Of a DNA stretch of 64,000 bases, positions 2,923-14,803 are shown one piece after another. Below the pieces are notes generated by a model. That model made no database searches, was not told where the DNA came from, and was given only the letters and a program-made list of their open reading frames with translations. The translations under genes and the position numbers were made by a program. Source of the DNA: Planctomycetota bacterium (GTDB lineage: Bacteria; Planctomycetota; Planctomycetia; Pirellulales; UBA1268); assembly GCA_029978905.1 (NCBI GenBank), contig JAPOIM010000012.1, forward strand, positions 333-64,332, given 5' to 3'. The stretch's first letter is position 1; each line of letters starts with the position of its first letter.

Positions 2923-4194
2923 TCAGTATTGCGGAAAAATCGCCGGGCTGGGGAATCGCTCTTCAATGCTCGAGGCATCGTTGAGGTATTCCTCCCGGGG
3001 CACTTGCACCTGAGGCCAGGTGTCTGGGCGAACACGAACGACGCGACCGGGCCGAATGCCTTCGATGATCAGGTCGGTCTCGAAACGCACCTGTATGCCG
3101 CTGCTGCCTAGCGGTGGCTCGCCCTCACTGGTGAGCACCTCAAGAATCGTGCCACGGGAGGCCATGTGGGCTGGGCCGTAGGCACCGTGCGTGTGCTTGA
3201 GGGTGTTTTCGACCGCGTTCATCATGGCCGCACGGCCGGGCACAAAGTCGGCGTAGAGGTCGTCGTCCATGCCGCCAAAGAGGGTTGCGATGACCTTCGC
3301 GCTGCCAAAGGTGCCGTACTCGACCGAGTCGATCCAGGCAGGCATCCACCGGCTACGAATGAAGGCTTTGTGCGTTTCGGTTTGTTGGTCCGCAGCGCGG
3401 TGGATCGCATCCTCATCCAGCCAGATGTCGGAGATGTGAAATCTGGTGAACACCCCATCGGGCGTGGGCCGCCAGGAGATCCCCAACAGCACGGTCTGGT
3501 CGAGCCCGTGCTTCCCTTCGGCGGGCCAGAGCCCTTCTGAGACCACGTCCTCAACCGTAAGGCATTCCCGCCCTCGCCAGATGCGGGTCGCGGCATCGAA
3601 GGAAAGCGTTTCGTCCTGAGGCTCGCTGCCGCTGCCATCTCTCGGTTCGACATGGGCGACGATCATGCCCGCCTGGCTGTGGCGATCGATCTCGGTGAGT
3701 CGCCACACGAGGCCTTCCCGGAGGCAGTGGCTCGGCTCGTCTTCGAGCAGCAGCACATGGTTTTCGGCAGGTGCGATGCCGGCGCCACGGTTGTGGTTGG
3801 CGTCTCTGGCTTTGTTATCCACAGGCAGGACAGGCACTGCGGAGATTTCTGGGTTTGGTGGGAGAAAGGCCCGCACATGGAGCACGGTGCCCAGCGGAAT
3901 GTCTCGCAGGTCTGCCGGCGCGTCGTGATACCGAACGACGGCGTAGGGGAGCAGCGCAAAGGGGTGTGGGTCGTTGCGGAAGAACATGCCCGACCCCTGG
4001 ACGCGGATGCTGCCGCGACGGTTGGCGTGATCCACAAACACCAGCTCGCCACGATACGTGTGGCTCATGTCGAGTGGTGGAAAGGTGCCCGCCTCTGGGC
4101 GAAAGGGTTCGTCGTCGGCCTGTGACGTGGATCGTGGCAGGACCGCACACGCTGCGAGCATGGCGAGGCACACGACGATGGTGCGTGGTGTCAT
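2923..4194 (-). CDS. secreted hypothetical protein
   Basis: 423-aa ORF with signal peptide [26 protein letters not shown]. Its ATG (4194-4192) overlaps the TGA (4193-4191) of the upstream DUF1552 gene, giving ATGA coupling. No family is recognised. Confidence 0.65.
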
Positions 4195-5549
4195 AGTTCG
4201 ACCACCCGATTGCTGTCGCCAAATGAGTCGATGTCCACTCCCATCCGCTGTGCCATGAGCAGCAGCAGGTTGCTCATGTGGGCCTGCGTGTTGGCGGGGC
4301 GGCTGCAGAGTCCGTAGTGCTCGCCAGGCTTGTCGAGTTGGTAGCCCTGGAAGTGTCCCTGGTTAAAGTCGAGGTGGCTCCCGTGGGTGAGGCCCAGGTC
4401 GGATCCACCGGCAAGCACGAGCGGGAGGTTTGCGTTGCCGTGACTGTGGCCGTACGACATGCCACTGCCAAAGAGTGCCATCGTGCTGCCAAGCAGGGGT
4501 TGTCCGTTGAGATCTTTGGTCTCCGTCAGCCGGGTGAGGAAGTAACTGAACTGTTCGATCGCGAAGGTGTCGTAGTTGGTGAGTTTTTCCATGTAGCCCG
4601 CATCGCCGCCGTGGTGGCTGAGTTGATGCCGCGACTCAGTGATCCCGATCTCGGGAATCGCGAAGGCGTCTCCCTCTCCCCCGAGGCTGAACGTGGCCAC
4701 CCGTGTGACGTCGGTCTGAAAGGCGAGAGTGATCAGGTCGTAGACGGCGCGGAAATAGTCGCCGGCCTGCGTCTGGGGGATGTCGCGATTGGTGCGCTGC
4801 CGGTCTGCGTCGGCGATCTCGGGGAGGGGCGTGTCGAGCCAGGCATCCGCACGCCGCGTACGAATCTCGGCCTCACGAACAGACGTGAGGTACTGGTCGA
4901 GGCGACCTCGGTCGGCCTGTCCCATCTTTTCTTCGAGCCGATGGACTTCGGCAAGGTTGTCGTCGAGCACGCTGGCCTTGCGCCGCAAGGCTTTTCGTTG
5001 GGCCTCGGTGCCCCCTTTGGGGGCTTCGAAGAGTGAGGCAAAGATCTCGCTGCAGCGTCGCAGGGCAGGGAGCTGAACGCCATCCGCTGTCCAGGCAAGC
5101 GAGCCCTGGGTGAGCGCAACTTCCATCGATGGATACCGTGTGTGTTCGGCCGTCACCTCCGCCATCTTCTGATCGACCGAGATCGTATTGCGATCGGATG
5201 GGCCAAGCTGACCTCCGGTGAGCCACACCGAGATGCAGTTGTGGTGATGGCTCAGGGCTCCTGGATGGTGGAGCCCGCTGATTGGCGTGATGACGCTGCG
5301 GTGTGGTTCCAGCGGCTTCAGCGATCGCGAAAACGCGTAGTCTTTGCCGGGCGTTGTGATCTGATAGTTCAGCGAATGCACACCGTTGGCCAGGTAGACA
5401 AACGCACTCCGTCGAGGCGTCGTGAGGTCCTGCTCGGAAGCCTGCAGCGGCAGCATGCACTCGAGCATCGGAAGGCCGATGCAGGTGCCCATCGCACGCA
5501 GCGCGTGGCGTCGGTCGATCAACCAGGATTGGGAAAGAAAGTGGCCCAT
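4191..5549 (-). CDS. DUF1552 domain-containing protein
   Basis: The N-terminus [27 protein letters not shown] is the characteristic Tat-like DUF1552 leader. The [11 protein letters not shown] region fits the family. The gene sits directly downstream of a DUF1592-type gene, the usual pairing in Planctomycetota and Verrucomicrobiota. Confidence 0.8.
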
Positions 5550-5566: not shown

Positions 5567-8026
5567 TCAGCGTTTTTGGAGCAGGTCGGACAAGGCAACT
5601 GCCCGCACGATGTCTTGGAGTTGGTAGTTGTGTTGTTGGGCGGCGTCCATGATGGCCTGAACATCATCGCGATCGTCGATCGTCAGGACACGGCGAAGTG
5701 CGTATGTGCACAGCTGCTCGATCAGGGCTCGTGCGACACGCTCGCGGTCTTCGATCACGAGTCGTTTGAAGTCCACGGCATCACTGAAGGCGCGGCCATC
5801 GGGGAGCACTCCTGACGCATCCACCTCAGGATCAGCCCCCATCCCCGTGGGAACCTGCTCGTGCGTTCTCCACTGCCCAATCGCGTCGTAGTGATCAAAC
5901 GCCAAGCCGAGCGGGTCGATCTGGCGGTGGCATGCTGCGCAGCTGGCGACGTGCGCGTGGGCTTCGATGCGGCTGCGGATCGTGACCTTGGCCTCCGAGG
6001 GGGGCACCGGTTCGATCGGATCGACGTTGGCGGGTGGTGGCGGGGGCGTTTTATTGAACAGCACCTCACTGATCCACACGCCTCGGTGGACTGGGCGGTG
6101 CCGGGTGCCGTCTGAGGTCAGTCCCAGTACCGCGCCCATCGTGAGCAGCCCACCACGATGGTCGTCTGGAGTGAGCGCCACCCGTTGAAAGCCCTGGCGT
6201 GTCGGTTCCGCAAGACCGTAGAAATCGCATAGCCGAGCGTTGGCCATCGTCCAGTCGGCGTCGAGGAGGTTCTCGATCGGCAGGTTGTTGGCAAACATCT
6301 CGCGGAAAAACTCGACGGGTTCCGCTTGCATGCTCGTCTCGAGCCAGTCGTCGTAGGTCGGATAGAGCTTCTTGTCGGGAGGGAACGTGCCCACGCGATG
6401 GAGCTGCAGCCACTGGCGAGAGAAATCGTCGATGAAGCGGTGCATCCGGGTGTCGGTCAGCATCCGGTTGAGCTCCTCCTCGAGTCCATCGCCTTTAAGC
6501 GTGCCGGCTCGGGCGGCCGCAAACAGACCCTCATCCGGCAGCGAACTCCACAGGAAGTAAGAGAGCCGTGAGGCGAGTTCCCACTGCGTCAGACGCTCGC
6601 GACCTTGAGGATCTCCTTCGACGAGGTAGAGGAAGTTTCGCGAGGTGAGCATGCCGGTGAGCGCCACCCGGTAGGCGGAGGCCATCGGCTCCCCGGCCTC
6701 GCGTTCGCCACGGTAAGACTGCAGGTAGGCGTCAAGCTCGCCATCGAGGACAGGCCGCCGCCAGGCTCGCTCGGCAAAGTGCTGAAGGTGCTCGGCAACC
6801 ACCTCGAGGGAAGCGTCGTCGGGAGGTATGACACCCAGTCGCAGCGATTTCTCCGCATCGGTTTCCAGCGGGCCCTCCCACTCGATCCAGTCGATGAGCA
6901 CTGTGGAGAAGAGGCCGTTGCCTTGGTCATCAAACATCTGCGGCGCGTTTGGATTGAGCAGCAGCGTGTCGCTGCTGTGGGTGAAGAGCGAGGAGGAACT
7001 TGTCAGCGCGTTGCGAAAGGCGGCGCCGCCTCGCCGGTCCACGCCGTCCGTCGCCACCACGCAGAAGTGCAGGGTCTTGGGCATCTCGAGGAACACCTCA
7101 AACTCGTACACCTCGGGTGCGTCTTCGGGGGCGGTGATGTCAAACTCGATCAGTCCCTCGACCGTTTCTTCACTGGTCTCCTGACCAATGCTCAGGTGGG
7201 CGGGTTGCCCGCCGATGGGGCGAATCCCGCTGGCCTGTAGGCGCAAGCGATACAGTCCGCTGTGCTCGGGGCCGGTTTGTCCGAACCAGTGGGAGGCCAG
7301 CGCCTGCTGCACGCGACCGGGAAAGAGGAGAAGCCGCAGTGGTCGGGTGATGCCGAAGCGCGTGAGGATCTCTTGCTGCTTCTCGCCACCGCCATACCGG
7401 AGGTCGGCGGCGGTCTTCCGCGCCGTTCGTGATTGCACGCCTTGCGGGGGAAACGCCCGGTCGAGCACGATCTCTGCGGCGCGGTAGTAGCGGTCGATGT
7501 GCGACGGCGAGAGGGTGAGCTCGGAACCGATGCGTTCAAAGCCGTGCCACAGGCTGTCTTCGTTGAGTTCCCCTGGCTTGGCGGGATCGTACCGCACACC
7601 GAGAAGATCGTAGACCGTGTTCTGATACTCCTTGCGGCTCAGCCGAGAGTGCACCACGGCGGGGCGAGCCGCCATCCGAGCAGCACGGCCGGCTTTGAGT
7701 TGGGCATCGAGGCTGGCAACAAAGGCCGCGATCTCATTCTGCGTCGGCTGAGGCTCGGTCGGCGGGGGCATCTCACCACTGTTGACCTTGTCGAGCACCT
7801 CGGCCCAGTGGTGGGAGTCGACACCGGCGAGAAAGTCACGCGACAAAAGATCGAGGCGAATGTCACCCTCTTCGTGTTCCTCACCATGGCAGCGGACGCA
7901 GTGCTGTTTCAGAAACGCTTCCAACACTGCCTCGCCACAGGCGCGCCCACACGACGCGGTGCTCACGAGCAGCATGCCGAGTGACACGAGCAGGTGTCTG
8001 CGGAAGCGGTGTGCTCGGCCAGCCAT
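5567..8026 (-). CDS. DUF1592/DUF1588/DUF1587/DUF1585-type protein with two CxxCH motifs
   Basis: The start was re-picked at ATG 8026 ([27 protein letters not shown]). CVRCH lies at 7886-7900, followed by GDIRLDL, and CAACH lies at 5927-5941. The size (about 819 aa) and the partner DUF1552 gene fit the family. Confidence 0.8.
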
Positions 8027-8167
8027 GACGAAATGGTCTCCCCCGGGTGCTCTCTCCCGTCCATTATGCTTTCCGCACCCAGACGTCTGCACCACCACTT
8101 CTCACAGGGGGAGTGGCCCTGCGGGGGAGCGCGTCGGGGGTGTCGATCACGATTCCGGGAGAGGGGT

Positions 8168-8575
8168 ATGACAGACGTGCCGTGGATGGAGTGGTATCAG
8201 AGCCTCGCCAAACCCTCATGGACGCCGCAGCCCCAGACGATTGGGCTGATTTGGCAGATCCTGTATCCCATCATTGTTGCCACGTTTGGGTACGTGTTCA
8301 TCCAAGCCGGGCGTCGGCGGATTCCCTGGCTCGTTGCGGTGCCCTTCGCCATCAATCTCGTGGCGAATGTGATTTTCACGCCGATTCAGTTCGGTATGCG
8401 AAATCTGCCGCTGGCCACGGTCGACATCCTGGTCGTGTGGGGCACCATCGTGTGGATGATGATCGCCGTCTGGTCGCATGCTCGTTGGGTGGCGGCGGCC
8501 CAGTTGCCCTACTTCGTCTGGGTCTCGATCGCCACGGTGCTGCAGATTTCCATCACCTGGATGAACCTCGGCTAG
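8168..8575 (+). CDS. tspO: TspO/MBR (tryptophan-rich sensory protein) family protein, short 4-TM form
   Basis: ATG at 8168 follows GGGAGAGGGG. WYQSLAKPSWTPQ matches the TspO WY..L.KP.W.PP motif. Trp-rich hydrophobic helices follow (LIWQILYPIIVATFGY, WLVAVPFAINLVANVIFTPIQFG, ...). Confidence 0.8.
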   Translation: MTDVPWMEWYQSLAKPSWTPQPQTIGLIWQILYPIIVATFGYVFIQAGRRRIPWLVAVPFAINLVANVIFTPIQFGMRNLPLATVDILVVWGTIVWMMIAVWSHARWVAAAQLPYFVWVSIATVLQISITWMNLG

Positions 8576-8595
8576 CACACTCCCCACCAAAAAAG

Positions 8596-8668
8596 TACCC
8601 CCGACAGGGATCGAACCTGTGACCTACGGTTTAGGAAACCGTCGCTCTATCCACTGAGCTACGGGGGC
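8596..8668 (-). tRNA. tRNA-Arg: tRNA-Arg (anticodon CCT)
   Basis: The reverse complement folds as a 73-nt cloverleaf: GCCCCCG TA GCTC AGTGGATA GAGC G ACGGT TTCCTAA ACCGT AGGTC ACAGG TTCGATC CCTGT CGGGGGT A. The anticodon loop TT-CCT-AA gives anticodon CCT. CCA is not encoded. Confidence 0.9.
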
Positions 8669-8725: not shown

Positions 8726-8858
8726 GAATCGGCGTTCTGGAGGGTACGTGGGGCAGCCGGCCCTCGCTCGGCGTTCCGCCAATGCTGGAGTGGGGCGGCC
8801 CGCGAACGTTGCCTACACTGTATGAAACCGTTTGCCCATCGCGATTGAGGTTGACCGT

Positions 8859-10820
8859 ATGCGGATGCGTGACTGGCTAATGCTGTGTGTGGGGGTTGTG
8901 GGGCTGATGTCCGCTGGGGTGGCTGCCGCTTCCCCAGATTTCTCCGCATCCCTGACGTCGATTGACGTCGCCGACTACCGCGGTCGGGTATGGACGCTCA
9001 CGGATTTCGACGACGACGACGTCTTGGTCGTCGCCTTTATGGGAACGGAGTGTCCGCTCGCCAAGCTCTACGCAGACCGGTTGGTCGAGCTGCAGCAGGC
9101 CTACGCGGATCGCGGCGTGGCCTTCGTGATGGTGATGAGCAATCGCCAAGACTCGATCGCCGAGATCGCTGCCTTTGCCAGACGCCACGCGGTCGAGTTT
9201 CCGGTGCTCAAAGACGCTGGCAACAAACTCGCCGACGCGCTCGGTGCCGAACGGACCCCTGAGGTGTTTGTGTTTGATGCGTCGCGCAGGCTGCGATACC
9301 ACGGACGCATCGATGACCAGTATGGCATCGGCTACATCCGTGACCGTGCCACCGATCGCGAACTGCAGGCATCCCTCGATGAACTGCTCGCTGGCAAGCC
9401 TGTGGGCATTCAGCAGACCACCGCCGTGGGCTGTCGCATTGGGCGTCAGCATGACGTGCGCGAGGACGCGGAGGTGACGTTTCGCGGAGGTGTGGCGCAC
9501 CTCCTGATGAACCGCTGTGTGAGTTGCCACCGCGAAGGGGAGATTGCGCCCTTTGCTCTCATCGACTATGAAGAATCGGCTGGCTGGGCCGACATGATTG
9601 CGGAAGTGGTTCGCGAGGAGCGGATGCCGCCGTGGCATGCGAGCCACGACATCGGCACCTTCGCCAACGATCGCTCACTCACCGACGGCGAAAAGCAGAT
9701 GCTGATCGACTGGGCGGAGGCGGGCGCGCCGGAGGGCGTGGGTGAGTTACCGAAACTCATCGATCGCGTGGAAGGCTGGCAGTTGCCGCGGGAGCCCGAC
9801 TTGGTGGTCAATGTCAGTCCCGAGCCCTTCAACGTGCCGGCTGAAGGCGCGGTTCGCTATCAGTACTTCGTGGTGGATCCAGGCATCGACGAAGATCGGT
9901 GGATCGAGGCTGCCGAACTGCTTCCTGAGAACCGGGCGGTTGTGCACCACATCCTCTGCTTCGTGCGGCCCAAAGGAGACCGAGGCAACATCCAGGCCGC
10001 TCGAAGTTTTCTCGTGGGGTATGTGCCGGGCACGCGGGTTGATGTGAATCCCCCGGGCATGGCGAAGCGGATTCCTGCCGGAAGCGAACTGGTGTTCCAG
10101 ATTCACTACACCCCCATCGGCACCGATCAAACGGACCAGAGCAAACTTGGCATCGTCTTCAAAGATCCAGAATCCGTGACGCATGAGATTGTGACGACCA
10201 GCGTTGTCCAGCCTCGCCTGCAGATTCCTCCAAACGATCCGAACTATGAGGTGGAGGCGATGCTGCCAGAGCTCCTGCCCGACGCGGTGCTGCTGGGCAT
10301 GAGCCCGCATATGCACGTGCGTGGCAAGGCTTTCCGCTACGAACTCGTGAAGCCAGACAAGACACGTGAGGTCTTGCTGGATGTGCCTGCCTACGACTTC
10401 AACTGGCAGACCAACTACGCCTTGGCAAAGCCTTTGCCGGTTTCCGCAGGATCACAGATCTACTGTAAGGCGGCGTTTGACAATAGCGACAACAATCTCG
10501 CGAATCCCGATCCCTCACAAACGGTGCGATGGGGCGACCAGACCTGGGACGAGATGATGATCGGGTACTTCCATTACGCCGTTCCGAAAGGCACCCCGAT
10601 CGTGATGCCGGAGAACCCACGGGGAAATCGAGGTGGCGGCGGCTCACGTGCGGAAGCCGCGATGCGAATCTTCCGTTTCCTTGATGGGGATGGGGATGGG
10701 AAAGTGCCTGTGAGCGAAGTTCCCGCCCAAATGCAGGACATGGCCAAACGGATCGATGCCGATGGCGATGGCGTGCTCACTGAGGACGAGATGGCAGCCG
10801 CTGCGGAAGCAACTCGCTAG
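8859..10820 (+). CDS. exported multidomain redox protein: thioredoxin-fold (redoxin) + CxxCH + PHM/DBH-like copper monooxygenase-like domain + EF-hand pair
   Basis: The start was re-picked at ATG 8859 (MRMRDWLMLCVGVVGLMSAGVAAA signal); the ORF begins at TTG 8832. The redoxin-like segment is VLVVAFMGTECPLAKLY. CVSCH lies at 9516-9530. The ordered ligand pattern is HH (9945-9950), H (10104-10106), HMH (10308-10316) and DEMM (10551-10559). Two canonical EF loops are present: DGDGDGKVPVSE and DADGDGVLTEDE. Confidence 0.75.
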   Translation: MRMRDWLMLCVGVVGLMSAGVAAASPDFSASLTSIDVADYRGRVWTLTDFDDDDVLVVAFMGTECPLAKLYADRLVELQQAYADRGVAFVMVMSNRQDSIAEIAAFARRHAVEFPVLKDAGNKLADALGAERTPEVFVFDASRRLRYHGRIDDQYGIGYIRDRATDRELQASLDELLAGKPVGIQQTTAVGCRIGRQHDVREDAEVTFRGGVAHLLMNRCVSCHREGEIAPFALIDYEESAGWADMIAEVVREERMPPWHASHDIGTFANDRSLTDGEKQMLIDWAEAGAPEGVGELPKLIDRVEGWQLPREPDLVVNVSPEPFNVPAEGAVRYQYFVVDPGIDEDRWIEAAELLPENRAVVHHILCFVRPKGDRGNIQAARSFLVGYVPGTRVDVNPPGMAKRIPAGSELVFQIHYTPIGTDQTDQSKLGIVFKDPESVTHEIVTTSVVQPRLQIPPNDPNYEVEAMLPELLPDAVLLGMSPHMHVRGKAFRYELVKPDKTREVLLDVPAYDFNWQTNYALAKPLPVSAGSQIYCKAAFDNSDNNLANPDPSQTVRWGDQTWDEMMIGYFHYAVPKGTPIVMPENPRGNRGGGGSRAEAAMRIFRFLDGDGDGKVPVSEVPAQMQDMAKRIDADGDGVLTEDEMAAAAEATR

Positions 10821-10822
10821 GT

Positions 10823-12106
10823 TCACTCCTTCCACCGCCAGAGCGTAATGCGATCGAGATCGCGAATGGCGATCTGATTGCCATCGATGGCAAGATGGGC
10901 CCAGCTTTCGAGGTCCGATACCTTTGCTTCACCGATCAGGGTAAAGCCTTCGGGTGTGGCCTTAATCAGCCGCAGGTCGCCAGTCTCGTCGAGGGCGAGC
11001 ATACGGTCGCCTTGGGCGACCATGCTCCAGTAGCGACCAAACGGTTTGGTGATCCAGGCTTCCTCGCCCGTGGTCAGATCGAGACAGGCGAAGCGTTGGT
11101 TGCGAAGGTGCACGTAGGCGTGGCCATCGATGATGATTGGCGTCGACATGTAACCCTGCACCTTGTTTCGCCAGACGAGGTCGACGGGTTTTTCTGCCTC
11201 ACCGCTCGCGACGGAGAAGAGGAAGGAGCCGCCGCCATAGGTGGTGGTGAACACCCGGCCGTCAATGACGGTGGGTGTGACGATGTTCATGCCTCGGAAG
11301 GCCTCGACCGGTGTCTTCCAGAGGACGGTGCCATCCTCGGGGTTTACGCCGGCGAGTTCTTCACGCGTTTGCACCAGGATCTGCTCGACGCCGTTGAGCG
11401 TGGCAATGAATGGGCTGGAAAACGCGCTGCCGTTCATGCCACCGGCGTCGTCGAGGACACGCCACACGATCTCGCCTGTTTTTTTATCGAGCTTCACGAA
11501 GCCCGACCCCGCTTGGACGAACACATGATCGCCACGGACCAGCGGGCTTGAAACGAAGCCAAACGCAGGAAGCGGGCTGTCAAAGGCCTGCGTAAAGTCA
11601 ACTCGCCACAGTTCGCTGCCGTCGGCGAGCGCGAAGCAGACGAGCACATCTCGCATGCCTCCCACGTACAAGCGATCTTCGTCCACACACGGCGTGGCTC
11701 GAATCCAGGATCCATTGGAGGCAGCGAAGAAGGGGACGGTCATTGCGCCTTCCCACGATGCTTCCCAACGCTTTTCGCCCGTCGCTCGGTCGTAGGCCAT
11801 CACATGCTCGGTGGCCTCGTCCCGCGTTTCGGTGATGAGCACGAGGCTCTCGGTGAGCAGCGGCCCGGAATAGCTGGGGCCGAGGTCGGCGACTTGCCAA
11901 ACCTGCTCGAGTTGCTCCGTGGCGAGCGAGTCTGGCCAGGCAGGGCCGCCGACGAAGCCGTCTCGGGAAGGACCACGCCACTGGAGCCACCCGGCGGGTT
12001 CTTCCGCGATGGCGGCGGCTGTGGCGAACGCGACCACCACCACAAGGCCCAAACGCCCTGCTCCATGAAAAAGACGAGGTGAGTTCGTGGTCGTGAGCAT
12101 CTTCAT
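10823..12106 (-). CDS. PQQ-like (BamB-like) beta-propeller repeat protein, secreted
   Basis: The start was re-picked at ATG 12106 or 12100, after GGGAG. The signal is LGLVVVVAFATAAAIA, followed by WLQWRGPSRDG. The sequence shows repeated W/G-containing blade patterns. Confidence 0.7.
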   Translation of the reverse strand: MKMLTTTNSPRLFHGAGRLGLVVVVAFATAAAIAEEPAGWLQWRGPSRDGFVGGPAWPDSLATEQLEQVWQVADLGPSYSGPLLTESLVLITETRDEATEHVMAYDRATGEKRWEASWEGAMTVPFFAASNGSWIRATPCVDEDRLYVGGMRDVLVCFALADGSELWRVDFTQAFDSPLPAFGFVSSPLVRGDHVFVQAGSGFVKLDKKTGEIVWRVLDDAGGMNGSAFSSPFIATLNGVEQILVQTREELAGVNPEDGTVLWKTPVEAFRGMNIVTPTVIDGRVFTTTYGGGSFLFSVASGEAEKPVDLVWRNKVQGYMSTPIIIDGHAYVHLRNQRFACLDLTTGEEAWITKPFGRYWSMVAQGDRMLALDETGDLRLIKATPEGFTLIGEAKVSDLESWAHLAIDGNQIAIRDLDRITLWRWKE

Positions 12107-12270
12107 CAACTCCCTAAAGCCGCATGGACCCAAGTGACCCAATCGTAGCCACTCCACGCGAGCCTGACACGGTCGCACCTCAGGGGGCGACGGCGTAGGC
12201 CTGGCGAAGCGACGTTGGTATTGTGGGGTGGAATGGTGACTTCCGCCAAAACGCTTTCAGGAGAATCAGC

Positions 12271-12802: not shown

Positions 12803-13243
12803 CTACTCAGCGTCACTTCGACGGAGCACAAACACGTTGCAGGGGGCGTGACGGAGCACACGTTCTGCGACGCTTCCTAGAAAGAGACGCTTCACGCCGT
12901 GATACCCGTGCGACGGGATCAGGATGAGTTCCGTCGCGTGAGCAGCGGCGTAGTCGGCGATGGCAAGCCCCGGCGTGCCAATGGCGACGGCGATCTGAGC
13001 ACCACCAGCGCCATGGTCTGTGGCAAGCCTCGTGAGGGCTTCAGTCACCCGCTGCGTGCGGACCTCATCTGTCACGTTTCCGGTGATCACGCCCGGAGAC
13101 ATGGTTTCCAGAGGCTCCATCACATGCAGCAGATGCAGCTGGGCTGGGCTGTCGACAAGTTGGAGGGCGGCCTGGATCAACCCTTTTTGTGGTGGCTCTT
13201 TGTTCGAGACTTCTGTTGGGGCCGAGCACCAGGGCCTGGCCAT
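12803..13243 (-). CDS. universal stress protein (UspA family)
   Basis: 146 aa. The motifs LHLLHV, DYAAAHATELILIPSHGYHGVKRLFLGSVAERVLRHAPCNVFVLR match the Usp ATP-binding C-terminal motif G..G....LGSV...V......PVL(V). Confidence 0.7.
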   Translation of the reverse strand: MARPWCSAPTEVSNKEPPQKGLIQAALQLVDSPAQLHLLHVMEPLETMSPGVITGNVTDEVRTQRVTEALTRLATDHGAGGAQIAVAIGTPGLAIADYAAAHATELILIPSHGYHGVKRLFLGSVAERVLRHAPCNVFVLRRSDAE

Positions 13244-13258
13244 TTGCAGGGCATGTCC

Positions 13259-14734
13259 TCAGCGGTAGGTGACAAACGCGTTTTTCTTGTAGCGCGTCCA
13301 GTAGTCACCGAGCATCGTTTTCACCCGCGGCGCGAGAATCACGCCACCGATGATGTTGGGGAAGGCCATCGAAAGAATCATCAGGTCGGAGAAGTCGATC
13401 ACGTTCTTTAGCGACGCCACCGACCCGAGCACGATGAAGGCGAGGAAGATCACGCGGTAGCAAATCACGTTGGCCCGCGACTTGCCCAAGAGATACTGCC
13501 AGGCCTTCTCGCCGTAATACGACCAGCTGATCATCGTGGAGTAGGCGAAGAGAAACACCGAAATGTTGAGGACGATGGGAAACCAGCTGAAGGTGTTGGC
13601 GAAAGCCTTGCGGGTCATCTCCACCCCCTCGCCGGCGGTCGGGTCGTCGTAGACGCCGCTGACGATCACAACCAATGCGGTCATCGTGCAGATCACGACG
13701 GTGTCGATAAACGGCCCCAGCATGGCCACCATGCCTTCTCGCACGGGCTCGTCAGTCTTGGCCGCTGCATGCGCGATGGCGGCGGAGCCCACGCCGGCCT
13801 CGTTGGAAAACACCGCACGTTTGATGCCCTGCACCATTACAGCCACAAAGCTGCCCCCAAAGGCGGCTTCGGGGGAAAGGCAGGACGTGACGATCAGGAG
13901 AGCGGCTTCAGGAATCTGCTTGAAGTTCATCGCCAGGATGACGAGCCCAGCCAAGACATAGATCCCGCACATCAGGGGAATAATCTTCTCGGTGACCTGG
14001 CCGATTCTGCGGATGCCACCAATGATCACGAGCCCAACGAGAAACGCGATCACCCCACCAATCATCCAGTCGATGCCCGCGGGTGTACCGATCACGTTGG
14101 TGAGCATTCCTCGGATCGCTGCGGTGGCCTGATTGGCCTGGAACATGTTGCCACCACCAAACGAGCCACCGATGCAAAAGATTGCGAAGACAAGGCCAAA
14201 GAGTTTGGCGATGAGAAACGGGATCCGCCGCTGCTGCAGGCCGATCTCCAGGTAGTACATCGGGCCACCATCGACGGTGCCATCGGGGTGCACCTTGCGG
14301 TAGACCTGAGCCAGCGTGCACTCGTTGAACTTGGCCGTCATTCCAAACAGGCCGATGAGCATCATCCAGATCACGGCCCCCGGCCCGCCGAGCTGAATGG
14401 CCACGGCCACGCCGGCGATGTTGCCGAGCCCCACCGTGGCGCTCAGGGCTGAGGTGAGGGCCTGGAAGTGCGAGATTTCACCCGGGTCGTTCGGGTTGTC
14501 GTAACGGCCGCGGGTGATGTCGATCGCGTGCTTGAAGCCGCGGATGTTGAGGAAGCCAAAGTAGATCGTGAAAAAAACCGATCCGCACAGCAGGATCAGC
14601 ACGATCAGCGGGATGGGGATCGCGGGTACCGGCTCCCAGAAAAGCACCGTGGCCATGTAGCCCACGATGGTCCCGAACTTCGCATCAATCGTTTCGGCAA
14701 GCGACGCGGCAAACAAGGACTGAATCGGCACCAT
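13259..14734 (-). CDS. alanine/glycine:cation symporter (AGCS family)
   Basis: The start was re-picked at ATG 14734, after GGAAAGGGG. The protein is polytopic. SATVGLGNIAGVAVAIQLGGPGAVIWMM is the AGCS signature region. Confidence 0.85.
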   Translation of the reverse strand: MVPIQSLFAASLAETIDAKFGTIVGYMATVLFWEPVPAIPIPLIVLILLCGSVFFTIYFGFLNIRGFKHAIDITRGRYDNPNDPGEISHFQALTSALSATVGLGNIAGVAVAIQLGGPGAVIWMMLIGLFGMTAKFNECTLAQVYRKVHPDGTVDGGPMYYLEIGLQQRRIPFLIAKLFGLVFAIFCIGGSFGGGNMFQANQATAAIRGMLTNVIGTPAGIDWMIGGVIAFLVGLVIIGGIRRIGQVTEKIIPLMCGIYVLAGLVILAMNFKQIPEAALLIVTSCLSPEAAFGGSFVAVMVQGIKRAVFSNEAGVGSAAIAHAAAKTDEPVREGMVAMLGPFIDTVVICTMTALVVIVSGVYDDPTAGEGVEMTRKAFANTFSWFPIVLNISVFLFAYSTMISWSYYGEKAWQYLLGKSRANVICYRVIFLAFIVLGSVASLKNVIDFSDLMILSMAFPNIIGGVILAPRVKTMLGDYWTRYKKNAFVTYR

Positions 14735-14803
14735 GAAACCCCTTTCCCTCTTCAAACCCACGCAAAGGAGCGTTCAAGCCTACCGTGCTCGCCGTGGCGG
14801 CCG

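What the first reader, a model, noticed from the sequence alone, without database searches (positions are those of the whole stretch)
8859..10820. Exported four-module redox protein: thioredoxin fold + CxxCH + PHM/DBH-like two-copper ligand pattern + EF-hand pair
A single 653-aa secreted protein carries four modules in order. First is a redoxin-like N-terminal domain (VLVVAFMGTECPLAKLY). Second is one heme-c type CVSCH motif (9516-9530). Third is a region whose His/Met residues follow the order and approximate spacing of the peptidylglycine alpha-hydroxylating monooxygenase / dopamine beta-monooxygenase copper ligands: HH (VVHHILCF), then H (QIHYTP) 53 residues later, then HxH (SPHMHVRG) 68 residues later, then DEMM 80 residues later. 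In PHM the ligands are H107/H108, H172, H242/H244 and M314 in a DEMC context. Fourth are two canonical 12-residue EF-hand loops at the C-terminus. Copper type II monooxygenase cores are overwhelmingly eukaryotic and poorly characterised in bacteria. Fusion to a thiol-redox fold, a heme site and Ca2+ sensors suggests a self-contained periplasmic electron-delivery plus oxygenase device with an unknown substrate.
Basis: partly seen in the sequence, partly recalled or inferred. Interest (0 to 1): 0.65.

Follow-up and report, generated by a model that had tools for sequence, protein, structure and literature searches.

The report
Bacterial haem-fed PHM/DBH-like copper oxygenase
This planctomycete gene encodes an exported protein whose core is a real bacterial relative of the animal copper enzymes that make noradrenaline and amidated peptide hormones; it is fused to its own c-type haem domain, belongs to a very large uncharacterised family, and is publicly labelled only "redoxin" or "peroxiredoxin".

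Summary
ORF 8859..10820 (+) encodes a 653-aa protein with a signal peptide and four modules. These are a monothiol thioredoxin-fold module (PRX_like1 type), a mono-haem cytochrome c module, a two-jelly-roll PHM/DBH-like core and a canonical EF-hand pair.

The copper-ligand reading passed four independent tests:
- Pfam Cu2_monoox_C scores above its curated cut-off.
- The AlphaFold model matches PHM and DBH over both domains (Foldseek E about 1e-12).
- A profile-profile comparison with animal DBH/TBH gives 93% probability and puts HH, H, HxH and DEM onto the enzymes' ligand motifs.
- All six ligands are 100% conserved in 150 cluster representatives.

The wider family is huge: 11,969 clusters at 50% identity, in Planctomycetota and Acidobacteriota. 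Its constant unit is cytochrome c plus the copper core. The redoxin and EF-hand modules are optional add-ons.

Most likely this is a periplasmic two-copper monooxygenase whose fused haem replaces ascorbate as electron donor. The substrate is unknown. Fusions elsewhere in the family (CBM48, SGNH/AlgX, MBOAT, esterase) hint at glycans. No operon is conserved and I found no literature on it.

Verdict: a new variant of a known kind, of moderately high interest. Copper binding, haem attachment and catalysis are all untested.

The parts
8859..10820 (+). Complete CDS, 653 aa plus stop. It appears to be monocistronic.
   Evidence: ORF list and start supported by the homologue alignment. A tRNA gene on the opposite strand lies upstream. 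The downstream gene is convergent.
8859..8930 (+). Putative Sec signal peptide (residues 1-24, MRMRDWLMLCVGVVGLMSAGVAAA).
   Evidence: Sequence read directly. AF2 models it as helix 2-18 at low confidence. This N-terminal region is variable among homologues. No signal-peptide predictor was available.
8946..9452 (+). Thioredoxin-fold module of the PRX_like1 type (residues about 30-198). It has the monothiol motif C65-P-L-A (9051..9053) and a distal G191-C192 (9432..9434).
   Evidence: Pfam AhpC-TSA and Redoxin at E 1e-14. PDB sequence hits 3u5r, 2cvb and 2ywi at E 8e-26 to 5e-17. Foldseek TM 0.79. C65 and C192 are about 100% conserved wherever the module is present, and position 68 is never Cys.
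9471..9743 (+). Mono-haem cytochrome c module (residues about 205-295). CVSCH lies at 9516..9530. The candidate axial Met is in M256-P-P-W at 9624..9635.
   Evidence: C220, C223, H224 and MPPW are about 100% conserved in 124-134 domains. Pfam Cytochrome_CBB3 and Haem_bd match below threshold in all 40 homologues, and above the cut-off in relatives P0121 and P0172. The isolated-domain model gave no significant PDB fold match.
9771..10178 (+). N-terminal jelly-roll of the copper core, carrying the CuH-type site: H363-H364 (9945..9950) and H416 (10104..10106).
   Evidence: Foldseek match to PHM and DBH. HMM and hhalign alignments to the DBH HH and VHY motifs. 100% conservation.
10179..10598 (+). 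C-terminal jelly-roll of the copper core, carrying the CuM-type site: H484-x-H486 (10308..10316) and M566 (10554..10556). The family motifs YDFNWQ and DNS..NL.NP also lie here.
   Evidence: Pfam Cu2_monoox_C covers residues 448-574 at 28.3 bits against a cut-off of 23. hhalign aligns HMH to HTH and DEM to DEM. H484, H486 and M566 are 100% conserved, whereas M567 and M485 vary.
10647..10814 (+). C-terminal EF-hand pair (residues 597-652). The loops are at 10683..10718 and 10755..10790.
   Evidence: Pfam EF-hand_1 and EF-hand_6 score above their cut-offs. AF2 shows helix-loop-helix twice, with short paired strands. Both loops fit the canonical D-x-D-x-D-G-x-[VL]-x-x-x-E pattern. The module is optional in the family and occurs at either end.

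Best explanation
This is an exported, probably periplasmic, non-coupled two-copper oxygenase of the PHM/DBH structural family, with its own electron-input module.

Shown by computation: the fold, the full ligand set of two copper sites (H363/H364/H416 and H484/H486/M566), and an invariant CxxCH...MPPW cytochrome c module that always sits immediately upstream of the CuH-type domain.

Inferred mechanism: the c-type haem takes single electrons from periplasmic respiratory carriers and passes them to the CuH-type site. It thereby replaces ascorbate, and it occupies the position that the DOMON domain holds in DBH. CuH then reduces the CuM-type site across the interdomain cleft, where O2 is activated and a C-H bond of an unidentified substrate is hydroxylated.

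The monothiol thioredoxin-fold module (C65, C192) and the EF-hand pair are accessory modules. The first may provide thiol-based protection, peroxide handling or maturation. The second may provide Ca2+-dependent stability or docking.

By my recollection of the PHM sequence, the arginine two residues before its HxH binds the glycine carboxylate. That position is a conserved Ser here, so peptidylglycine is unlikely to be the substrate. Fusion partners elsewhere in the family point weakly towards glycan or cell-envelope substrates.
For: - Pfam Cu2_monoox_C scores above its cut-off. All 40 homologues match it at E<=1.
- The AF2 model has pLDDT 80. Foldseek finds PHM and DBH at E about 1e-12 with TM about 0.6 over both domains.
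- DBH is the only PDB hit of the core profile, with the HH, H and HxH motifs aligned.
- hhalign against DBH/TBH gives 93.3% probability with all four ligand motifs aligned.
- The ligands are 100% conserved in 150 representatives.
- Relative P0184 also matches the Pfam N-domain model Cu2_monooxygen, at E 5.7e-4.
- Cytochrome c precedes the core in every representative whose N-terminal part is present. The 'core'-only hits begin at the first residues of the protein and look like truncated fragments; I did not check them one by one.
- CxxCH and MPPW are about 100% conserved.
- The gene stands alone: there is a tRNA gene on the opposite strand upstream, a convergent gene downstream, and no conserved neighbours. 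This fits a self-contained enzyme.
Against: - There is no biochemical evidence at all for copper binding, haem attachment or O2 chemistry.
- The Pfam N-domain model does not match the window protein, even at E<=1.
- Sequence identity to PHM and DBH is only 14-18%.
- The model coordinates could not be inspected, so the Cu-Cu and haem-CuH distances were not measured.
- The isolated cytochrome c model has no significant PDB neighbour.
- The five disulfides I recall for PHM have no counterpart here: the mature protein has only six Cys, two of them in the haem motif.
- The role of the thioredoxin-fold module is unexplained.
- The substrate is unknown.
Confidence: 0.6

Rival explanations
1. It is a periplasmic antioxidant or oxidoreductase rather than a substrate-hydroxylating enzyme. 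The copper core reduces O2 or H2O2, or oxidises a small reductant, with electrons exchanged through the haem. The thioredoxin-fold module acts as a thiol peroxidase. In effect it would be a fused cytochrome c:peroxide/oxygen detoxifier.
For: - Public names are 'peroxiredoxin' and 'redoxin domain-containing protein'.
- There are weak GPx and peroxiredoxin matches in NCBIfam and PDB.
- A Usp gene lies nearby in the window, and HSP20 and an ECF-type sigma factor lie next to the Stieleria orthologue.
- The redoxin module is present in about two thirds of family representatives.
Against: - About one third of representatives lack the redoxin module but keep cytochrome c plus the core, so the core function does not depend on it.
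- The active-site motif is CP[LVI][AS], not the peroxiredoxin PxxxTxxC. By my recollection of NCBI's CDD description of PRX_like1, its conserved Cys does not correspond to the peroxidatic Cys.
- The strictly conserved Met ligand and two-site geometry are, from established PHM/DBH enzymology, the signature of substrate C-H hydroxylation.
- The stress-gene neighbours are not conserved.
Confidence: 0.2
2. It is a metallochaperone or maturation factor. The thioredoxin-fold module (like TlpA, ResA or Sco) and the His/Met sites would bind and deliver copper, or keep thiols reduced, for other periplasmic cuproproteins or cytochromes. There would be no catalysis on an external substrate.
For: - The best NCBIfam match of the N-terminal module is ResA, and ResA, CcmG and DsbE appear among the PDB hits.
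- From established knowledge, thioredoxin-fold proteins such as Sco and TlpA serve copper-site assembly.
- His and Met-rich sites can bind Cu(I).
Against: - The ResA match is far below the curated cut-off (28.9 against 170 bits).
- A complete, invariant two-domain PHM/DBH core with both sites, plus a dedicated haem, is more than a chaperone would need.
- Fusions to catalytic and binding modules (SGNH, alpha/beta-hydrolase, CBM48, MBOAT) fit an enzyme acting on a substrate.
- There is no linkage to cox, nos or copper-resistance genes in any inspected locus.
Confidence: 0.1
3. The His/Met pattern is coincidental, and the region is an unrelated beta-sandwich domain with no metal site.
For: Identity to PHM and DBH is only 14-18%. 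The full-length profile found no PHM or DBH in PDB sequences.
Against: The Pfam score above threshold, the Foldseek match, the hhalign result and the 100% conservation of exactly the six ligand positions all agree.
Confidence: 0.02

Closest known systems
[quoted passage not shown]
   Same: It has the two-jelly-roll fold over both domains (Foldseek E about 1e-12, TM about 0.6). The ligand order HH...H...HxH...M is the same, in a DEM context. A Tyr sits four residues after the Met; that PHM has Y318 at the equivalent place is from my memory.
   Different: - 14-16% identity.
- Bacterial, and Sec-exported.
- No Arg two residues before HxH (Ser here), so the glycine-carboxylate anchor is missing.
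- No PAL partner domain.
- A fused cytochrome c stands in for soluble ascorbate.
- PHM's disulfide set is absent.
Dopamine beta-hydroxylase, tyramine beta-monooxygenase and MOXD1 (PDB 4ZEL)
   Same: DBH is the only PDB sequence hit of the core profile. hhalign against DBH/TBH gives 93% probability with all ligand motifs aligned. The domain order is the same: an N-terminal accessory domain, then the CuH domain, then the CuM domain.
   Different: The DOMON domain is replaced by a c-type cytochrome. There is no C-terminal dimerisation domain. The Pfam N-domain model does not reach significance for the window protein. The substrate pocket residues are not shared.
PRX_like1 thioredoxin-fold proteins of unknown function (PDB 3U5R SMc02350, 2CVB/2YWO TTHA0593, 2YWI)
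   Same: The N-terminal module aligns over its whole length (E 8e-26 to 5e-17, 29-34% identity, TM 0.79). This includes the C-P-x-x motif and the C-terminal G-C motif.
   Different: Those are stand-alone proteins of about 190 aa. Two of them have an extra Cys (CNHC). Here the module is fused to the haem and copper core.
Cellobiose dehydrogenase cytochrome domain feeding lytic polysaccharide monooxygenases (functional analogy only)
   Same: In both, a haem domain would deliver single electrons to a copper oxygenase outside the cytoplasm. Carbohydrate-binding and carbohydrate-active modules are fused in some family members.
   Different: The folds are unrelated. LPMOs have one copper in a histidine brace, and the CDH haem is b-type in a DOMON-like fold. 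No glycan activity has been shown here.

Membership tests
Copper type II ascorbate-dependent monooxygenases (PHM/DBH/TBM; non-coupled binuclear copper monooxygenases) | Two consecutive beta-sandwich (jelly-roll) domains forming an interdomain cleft | tested here: met
   The AF2 model (pLDDT 80) aligns to PHM over 282-299 columns of about 305 residues, and to DBH (E 1.6e-12 to 1e-9, TM about 0.6).
Copper type II ascorbate-dependent monooxygenases (PHM/DBH/TBM; non-coupled binuclear copper monooxygenases) | CuH ligands: an HH pair plus a third His in the N-terminal domain | tested here: met
   H363/H364 and H416 align to LVHHME and LEVHY of DBH/TBH. They are 100% conserved in 152-153 aligned domains.
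Copper type II ascorbate-dependent monooxygenases (PHM/DBH/TBM; non-coupled binuclear copper monooxygenases) | CuM ligands: HxH plus Met in the C-terminal domain | tested here: met
   H484-M-H486 aligns to H-T-H, and D-E-M566 aligns to D-E-M of DBH/TBH. These positions are 100% conserved, while the neighbouring M567 varies.
Copper type II ascorbate-dependent monooxygenases (PHM/DBH/TBM; non-coupled binuclear copper monooxygenases) | Match to Pfam PF03712 Cu2_monoox_C above the gathering score | tested here: met
   28.3 bits against a cut-off of 23, residues 448-574. All 40 homologues match at E<=1, best 3.1e-8.
Copper type II ascorbate-dependent monooxygenases (PHM/DBH/TBM; non-coupled binuclear copper monooxygenases) | Match to Pfam PF01082 Cu2_monooxygen (N-terminal domain) | tested here: not met
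   There is no hit at E<=1 in the window protein or in any of the 40 homologues. Only the distant relative P0184 reaches E 5.7e-4, at 20.5 bits against a cut-off of 30. Homology of this domain rests on the Foldseek and hhalign results.
Copper type II ascorbate-dependent monooxygenases (PHM/DBH/TBM; non-coupled binuclear copper monooxygenases) | Two copper ions about 11 Å apart; O2-dependent C-H hydroxylation; ascorbate as reductant | not testable with these tools
This needs ICP-MS, EPR, a structure and activity assays. Ascorbate dependence is not expected here, because a cytochrome c is fused.
Class I-like c-type cytochromes | A CxxCH haem-attachment motif with a distal axial ligand (Met), in an all-alpha domain exported to the periplasm | tested here: inconclusive
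   CxxCH and the downstream M-P-P-W are about 100% conserved. The domain model is helical, with CxxCH at the end of the first helix. Pfam Cytochrome_CBB3 scores above its cut-off only in relatives P0121 (37.1 bits) and P0172 (28.2 bits), and reaches only 14.4 bits here. There is no significant PDB match by sequence or fold.
Thioredoxin-fold PRX_like1 / AhpC-TSA superfamily | A thioredoxin fold with a conserved Cys at the N-terminus of helix 1 | tested here: met
   Pfam AhpC-TSA 55 bits and Redoxin 52.8 bits. PDB 3u5r, 2cvb and 2ywi are found by sequence and by fold. C65 is conserved.
Typical peroxiredoxins (the name given by JGI) | The PxxxTxxC peroxidatic motif | tested here: not met
   The motif here is F-M-G-T-E-C65-P, so Thr is two residues before Cys rather than three, and there is no upstream Pro at the required spacing. 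The NCBIfam thiol peroxidase match is 17 bits against a cut-off of 140.
EF-hand calcium-binding pair | Two 12-residue loops D-x-[DNS]-x-[DNS]-G-x-[ILV]-x-x-x-E, each flanked by helices | tested here: met
   The loops are 609-620 and 633-644. Pfam EF-hand_1 and EF-hand_6 score above their cut-offs. AF2 shows helices 597-608, 623-632 and 642-652. Ca2+ binding itself was not tested.

The most novel reading that the evidence does not exclude
The cytochrome c plus PHM-like unit could be the catalytic heart of a very large, unrecognised class of bacterial extracytoplasmic copper oxygenases in Planctomycetota and Acidobacteriota. These would act on polysaccharides or other cell-envelope or extracellular polymers. 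They would be functional analogues of LPMOs, but built on the PHM fold, with two coppers and a built-in haem electron donor.

The hint comes from fusions of the same unit, in different family members, to CBM48, SGNH/AlgX-like, MBOAT, alpha/beta-hydrolase, 3-keto-disaccharide-hydrolase-like and PQQ_2 propeller modules.
Probability: 0.15. Interest if true: 0.85.

Novelty: new variant of a known kind. Interest (0 to 1): 0.6.

Why it matters
PHM and DBH are textbook enzymes. How electrons reach CuH and cross to CuM is still debated, and essentially all the mechanistic work has been done on animal enzymes fed by ascorbate.

A bacterial lineage in which the same two-copper core is permanently wired to a c-type haem would offer three things:
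- A natural, genetically tractable system for studying that electron transfer.
- A likely new oxygenase chemistry in the periplasm of abundant soil and marine phyla.
- A correction to thousands of database entries now named only 'redoxin' or 'peroxiredoxin'.

If the substrate proves to be a glycan or envelope polymer, it would add a second structural solution to copper-dependent polymer oxidation.

Tried and rejected
- The full-length family profile against PDB sequences returned only thioredoxin-fold and EF-hand proteins among the 60 of 93 hits shown. No PHM or DBH was listed. A core-only profile was needed.
- phmmer with the C-terminal copper domain alone against PDB found nothing.
- The cytochrome c module alone gave only a spurious sequence hit. 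Foldseek on a dedicated AF2 model (pLDDT 82) gave no significant match. The haem assignment therefore rests on motif conservation and weak Pfam hits.
- I looked for a conserved operon in four encoding contigs and 80 genome loci. Only genus-level synteny appeared (PQQ_2 propeller, Usp, Na:Ala symporter in the 81% orthologue). The recurrent neighbours were sulfatase in 9 of 83 loci, MMPL in 7 and PQQ_2 in 6. The sulfatase figure is about what I would expect by chance, given my rough memory-based estimate of how many sulfatases planctomycete genomes carry.
- Six full-text literature searches found no paper on bacterial PHM/DBH-like proteins fused to cytochrome c or redoxin. A seventh query was rejected for syntax. 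Paper PMC8812541 treats PHM only as a double-jelly-roll fold that is widespread in eukaryotes.
- I checked whether short metagenomic 'dopamine beta-monooxygenase' proteins about 50% identical to human DBH (for example P0311) are bacterial. Their contigs look eukaryotic, with split genes and low coding density, so they say nothing about bacteria.
- Peptidylglycine as substrate was rejected, because the position of the carboxylate-binding Arg is a conserved Ser (the PHM residue roles are from memory).
- The name 'peroxiredoxin' was rejected, because the motif test failed.
Full report
**Observation**

The window is 60-68% G+C. It carries hallmark planctomycete genes: a PSCyt1/PSD1-5 protein and a DUF1552 protein.

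The frame 8832..10820 (+) is the only long ORF on that stretch with coherent homology. The ATG at 8859 gives 653 aa and coincides with where the homologues start.

The N-terminus MRMRDWLMLCVGVVGLMSAGVAAA|S reads as a Sec signal peptide. That is my reading by eye; no predictor was available.

**Module anatomy**

Pfam finds AhpC-TSA and Redoxin (residues 25-150, E 1e-14). It finds Cu2_monoox_C (448-574, 28.3 bits against a curated cut-off of 23) and EF-hand_1/EF-hand_6 above their cut-offs. Around CVSCH it finds only weak Haem_bd and Cytochrome_CBB3 matches. The N-terminal PHM model Cu2_monooxygen does not hit. NCBIfam has no model for the core.

The N-terminal module is a full-length relative of three structural-genomics proteins of unknown function: 3U5R, 2CVB/2YWO and 2YWI (E 8e-26 to 5e-17).

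**Is the PHM/DBH reading real?**

There are four independent lines of evidence.

1. Conservation. In 40 full-length homologues at 54-81% identity, H363, H364, H416, H484, H486, E565 and M566 are invariant. In 150 representatives of 50%-identity clusters found with a core-only profile, the six ligand positions are 100% conserved wherever the column is present. The neighbouring M567 (M/L/F/A) and M485 (M/L/A/S) vary. This picks out M566 as the ligand Met.
2. Structure. An AlphaFold2 model built on the 40-sequence alignment has mean pLDDT 80 and pTM 0.63. Foldseek against the PDB returns the three PRX_like1 structures. It then returns dozens of PHM entries (3MLL, 1PHM, 1SDW and others) and human DBH 4ZEL, at E 1.6e-12 to 1e-9. 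About 285 columns of roughly 305 PHM residues align, with TM about 0.6, so both jelly-rolls are matched.
3. Profile against sequence. A profile of residues 296-585 has exactly one PDB sequence hit, human DBH (E 0.023). The alignment spans both domains and puts HH, VHY and HxH onto the DBH motifs.
4. Profile against profile. I recovered animal DBH/TBH sequences with the DBH fragment and aligned 18 of them. hhalign of the two alignments gives 93.3% probability, E 2.7e-7 and 243 aligned columns. It aligns VVHHIL to LVHHME, FQVHYTP to LEVHYNNP, PHMHVRGK to QLHTHLTGR, and WDEMMIGYFHY to TDEMCVNYVHY.

What I could not do is measure the site geometry, because model coordinates are not exposed. One formal membership feature, the Pfam N-domain model, fails for this protein. 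Only a distant relative, P0184, reaches E 5.7e-4 on it.

**The haem module**

C220, C223 and H224, and a downstream M256-P-P-W259, are essentially 100% conserved in 124-134 aligned domains. The domain model is helical, with CxxCH at the end of the first helix.

Pfam Cytochrome_CBB3 scores above its cut-off in relatives P0121 (37.1 bits) and P0172 (28.2 bits), and below threshold in all 40 close homologues. The isolated domain has no significant PDB neighbour by sequence or by fold.

It is best described as a divergent mono-haem cytochrome c with probable His/Met ligation. This is inferred, not shown.

**The thioredoxin-fold module**

Wherever the module is present, C65-P-[LVI]-[AS] and G191-C192 are conserved at about 100%, and the second CxxC position is never Cys. 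It is therefore a monothiol thioredoxin fold with a distal Cys, as in the PRX_like1 structures. The peroxiredoxin motif test fails, so the JGI name 'peroxiredoxin' is not supported.

**Family and architecture**

The core profile finds 11,969 cluster representatives at E<=1e-3, and 2,143 at E<=1e-30. The kept loci come from Pirellulales, Planctomycetales, Gemmatales and Isosphaerales, and from Acidobacteriota (Solibacteraceae/Bryobacterales, Blastocatellia, Terriglobia).

I mapped domains on the 150 representatives:
- Cytochrome c precedes the core in every representative whose N-terminal part is present. The 'core'-only hits begin at the first residues of the protein and look like truncated fragments; I did not check them one by one.
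- The redoxin module occurs in about two thirds.
- The EF-hand module occurs in about a quarter, at either end.
- Tandem duplications exist (P0121, 1,251 aa).

The constant functional unit is therefore cytochrome c plus the two-copper core. The window's four-module arrangement is one common variant.

Other fusions seen are CBM48/AMPK1_CBM, GDSL/SGNH with an AlgX-like region, MBOAT, alpha/beta-hydrolase/esterase, 3-keto-disaccharide-hydrolase-like, a PQQ_2 propeller and BlaR1-type M56.

**Genomic context**

A tRNA-Arg(CCT) gene on the opposite strand (8595..8668) separates the gene from the upstream TspO gene. Downstream, a PQQ_2 beta-propeller gene converges on it with a 2-nt gap. No promoter-like site was found by the sigma-70 scan, which may not apply to this phylum.

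The downstream synteny (propeller, Usp, Na:Ala symporter) is kept only in the 81%-identical orthologue. It is lost in Stieleria, strain SH139 and Rosistilla.

Over 83 loci the most recurrent neighbours are sulfatases (9), MMPL transporters (7) and PQQ_2 propellers (6). The sulfatase count is about what I would expect by chance, given my rough memory-based estimate of how many sulfatases planctomycetes carry. The propeller is mildly interesting, because the same domain is fused in P0249.

The gene looks self-contained.

**Mechanism**

- Shown by computation: the fold, the ligand set, the obligatory cytochrome c neighbour, and export.
- Inferred: the haem accepts electrons from periplasmic carriers and reduces the CuH-type site. 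This takes the place of ascorbate, and it occupies the position that the DOMON domain holds in DBH. CuH then reduces CuM, where O2 is activated to hydroxylate a substrate.
- Substrate: the position two residues before HxH is a conserved Ser, where PHM has the carboxylate-binding Arg by my recollection. Peptidylglycine is therefore unlikely. The fusion partners lean towards glycan or cell-envelope chemistry, but this is only a lead.
- EF-hand pair: both loops are canonical, but the module is optional in the family. A structural or docking role is as likely as sensing.

**Rivals**

- A peroxide/oxygen detoxifier built around the redoxin module. This is weakened because a third of representatives lack that module, and because the peroxiredoxin motif test fails.
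- A copper or thiol maturation factor. This is weakened by the complete catalytic-type core, the enzyme-like fusions, and the absence of linkage to cuproenzyme genes.
- Coincidence. This is effectively refuted.

**Novelty**

Domain databases already flag PF03712 on many of these proteins (the precomputed Pfam column). The homology is therefore discoverable, but the proteins are named only for their redoxin module. I found no paper treating them in six full-text searches. Many subscription journals are not covered, so an existing description cannot be excluded.

I rate it a new variant of a known kind: a PHM/DBH-type two-copper core, in bacteria, permanently coupled to a c-type haem. Interest is moderately high, because of the size of the family and the direct handle it offers on electron delivery in this enzyme class. 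It is tempered by the complete absence of functional data.

Noticed in passing
window 10823..12178 (-); also L002 7972..9234, L018 4032..5489, L022 1958..3298, L057 4556..6157: A PQQ_2 (BamB-like) beta-propeller gene converges on the 3' end of the finding with a 2-nt gap. Similar propellers lie within 3 kb in 6 of 83 related loci, and the same domain is fused to the C-terminus of family member P0249 (1,181 aa). This is a possible functional partner.
   Followed up: partly
window 8595..8668 (-): A tRNA-Arg (anticodon CCT) lies between the TspO gene and the finding. A terminator-like hairpin overlaps the tRNA's 3' end on the minus strand. This separates the finding from the upstream gene.
   Followed up: yes
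window 7994..8575 (+): A TspO/MBR family (tryptophan-rich sensory, tetrapyrrole-binding) membrane protein lies directly upstream. The adjacency is not kept in the 81% orthologue's contig or in the more distant genomes.
   Followed up: partly
window 5567..8098 (-) and 4191..5549 (-): This is the classic planctomycete gene pair: an 843-aa PSCyt1/PSD3/PSD5/PSD4/PSCyt3/PSD2 protein with two CxxCH motifs, followed by a DUF1552 (HXXSHH) protein. It is another uncharacterised haem protein family close to the finding.
   Followed up: no
P0248, P0166, P0182, P0134, P0153, P0173, P0126 (family members outside the window): In different proteins, the cytochrome c plus copper core unit is fused to MBOAT, SGNH/AlgX-like, CBM48, alpha/beta-hydrolase or 3-keto-disaccharide-hydrolase-like modules. 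By my recollection, MBOAT and SGNH/AlgX are the two partners of polysaccharide O-acetylation systems. This suggests a link to glycan or cell-envelope chemistry.
   Followed up: partly
P0121 (1,251 aa, outside the window): This protein is a tandem duplication of the whole redoxin, cytochrome c and copper core unit in one polypeptide. It was the best-scoring representative.
   Followed up: no
L085/L086 5001..5855 (P0311): Metagenomic 284-aa proteins about 50% identical to human DBH carry both Pfam copper monooxygenase domains. They sit on contigs with split genes and low coding density, so they are probably eukaryotic DNA in metagenomes rather than bacterial DBH.
   Followed up: partly
window 12803..13243 (-) and 13259..14761 (-): A universal stress protein gene and a Na+:alanine symporter gene lie downstream. 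They are syntenic with the finding only in the closest orthologue's contig (L002).
   Followed up: partly
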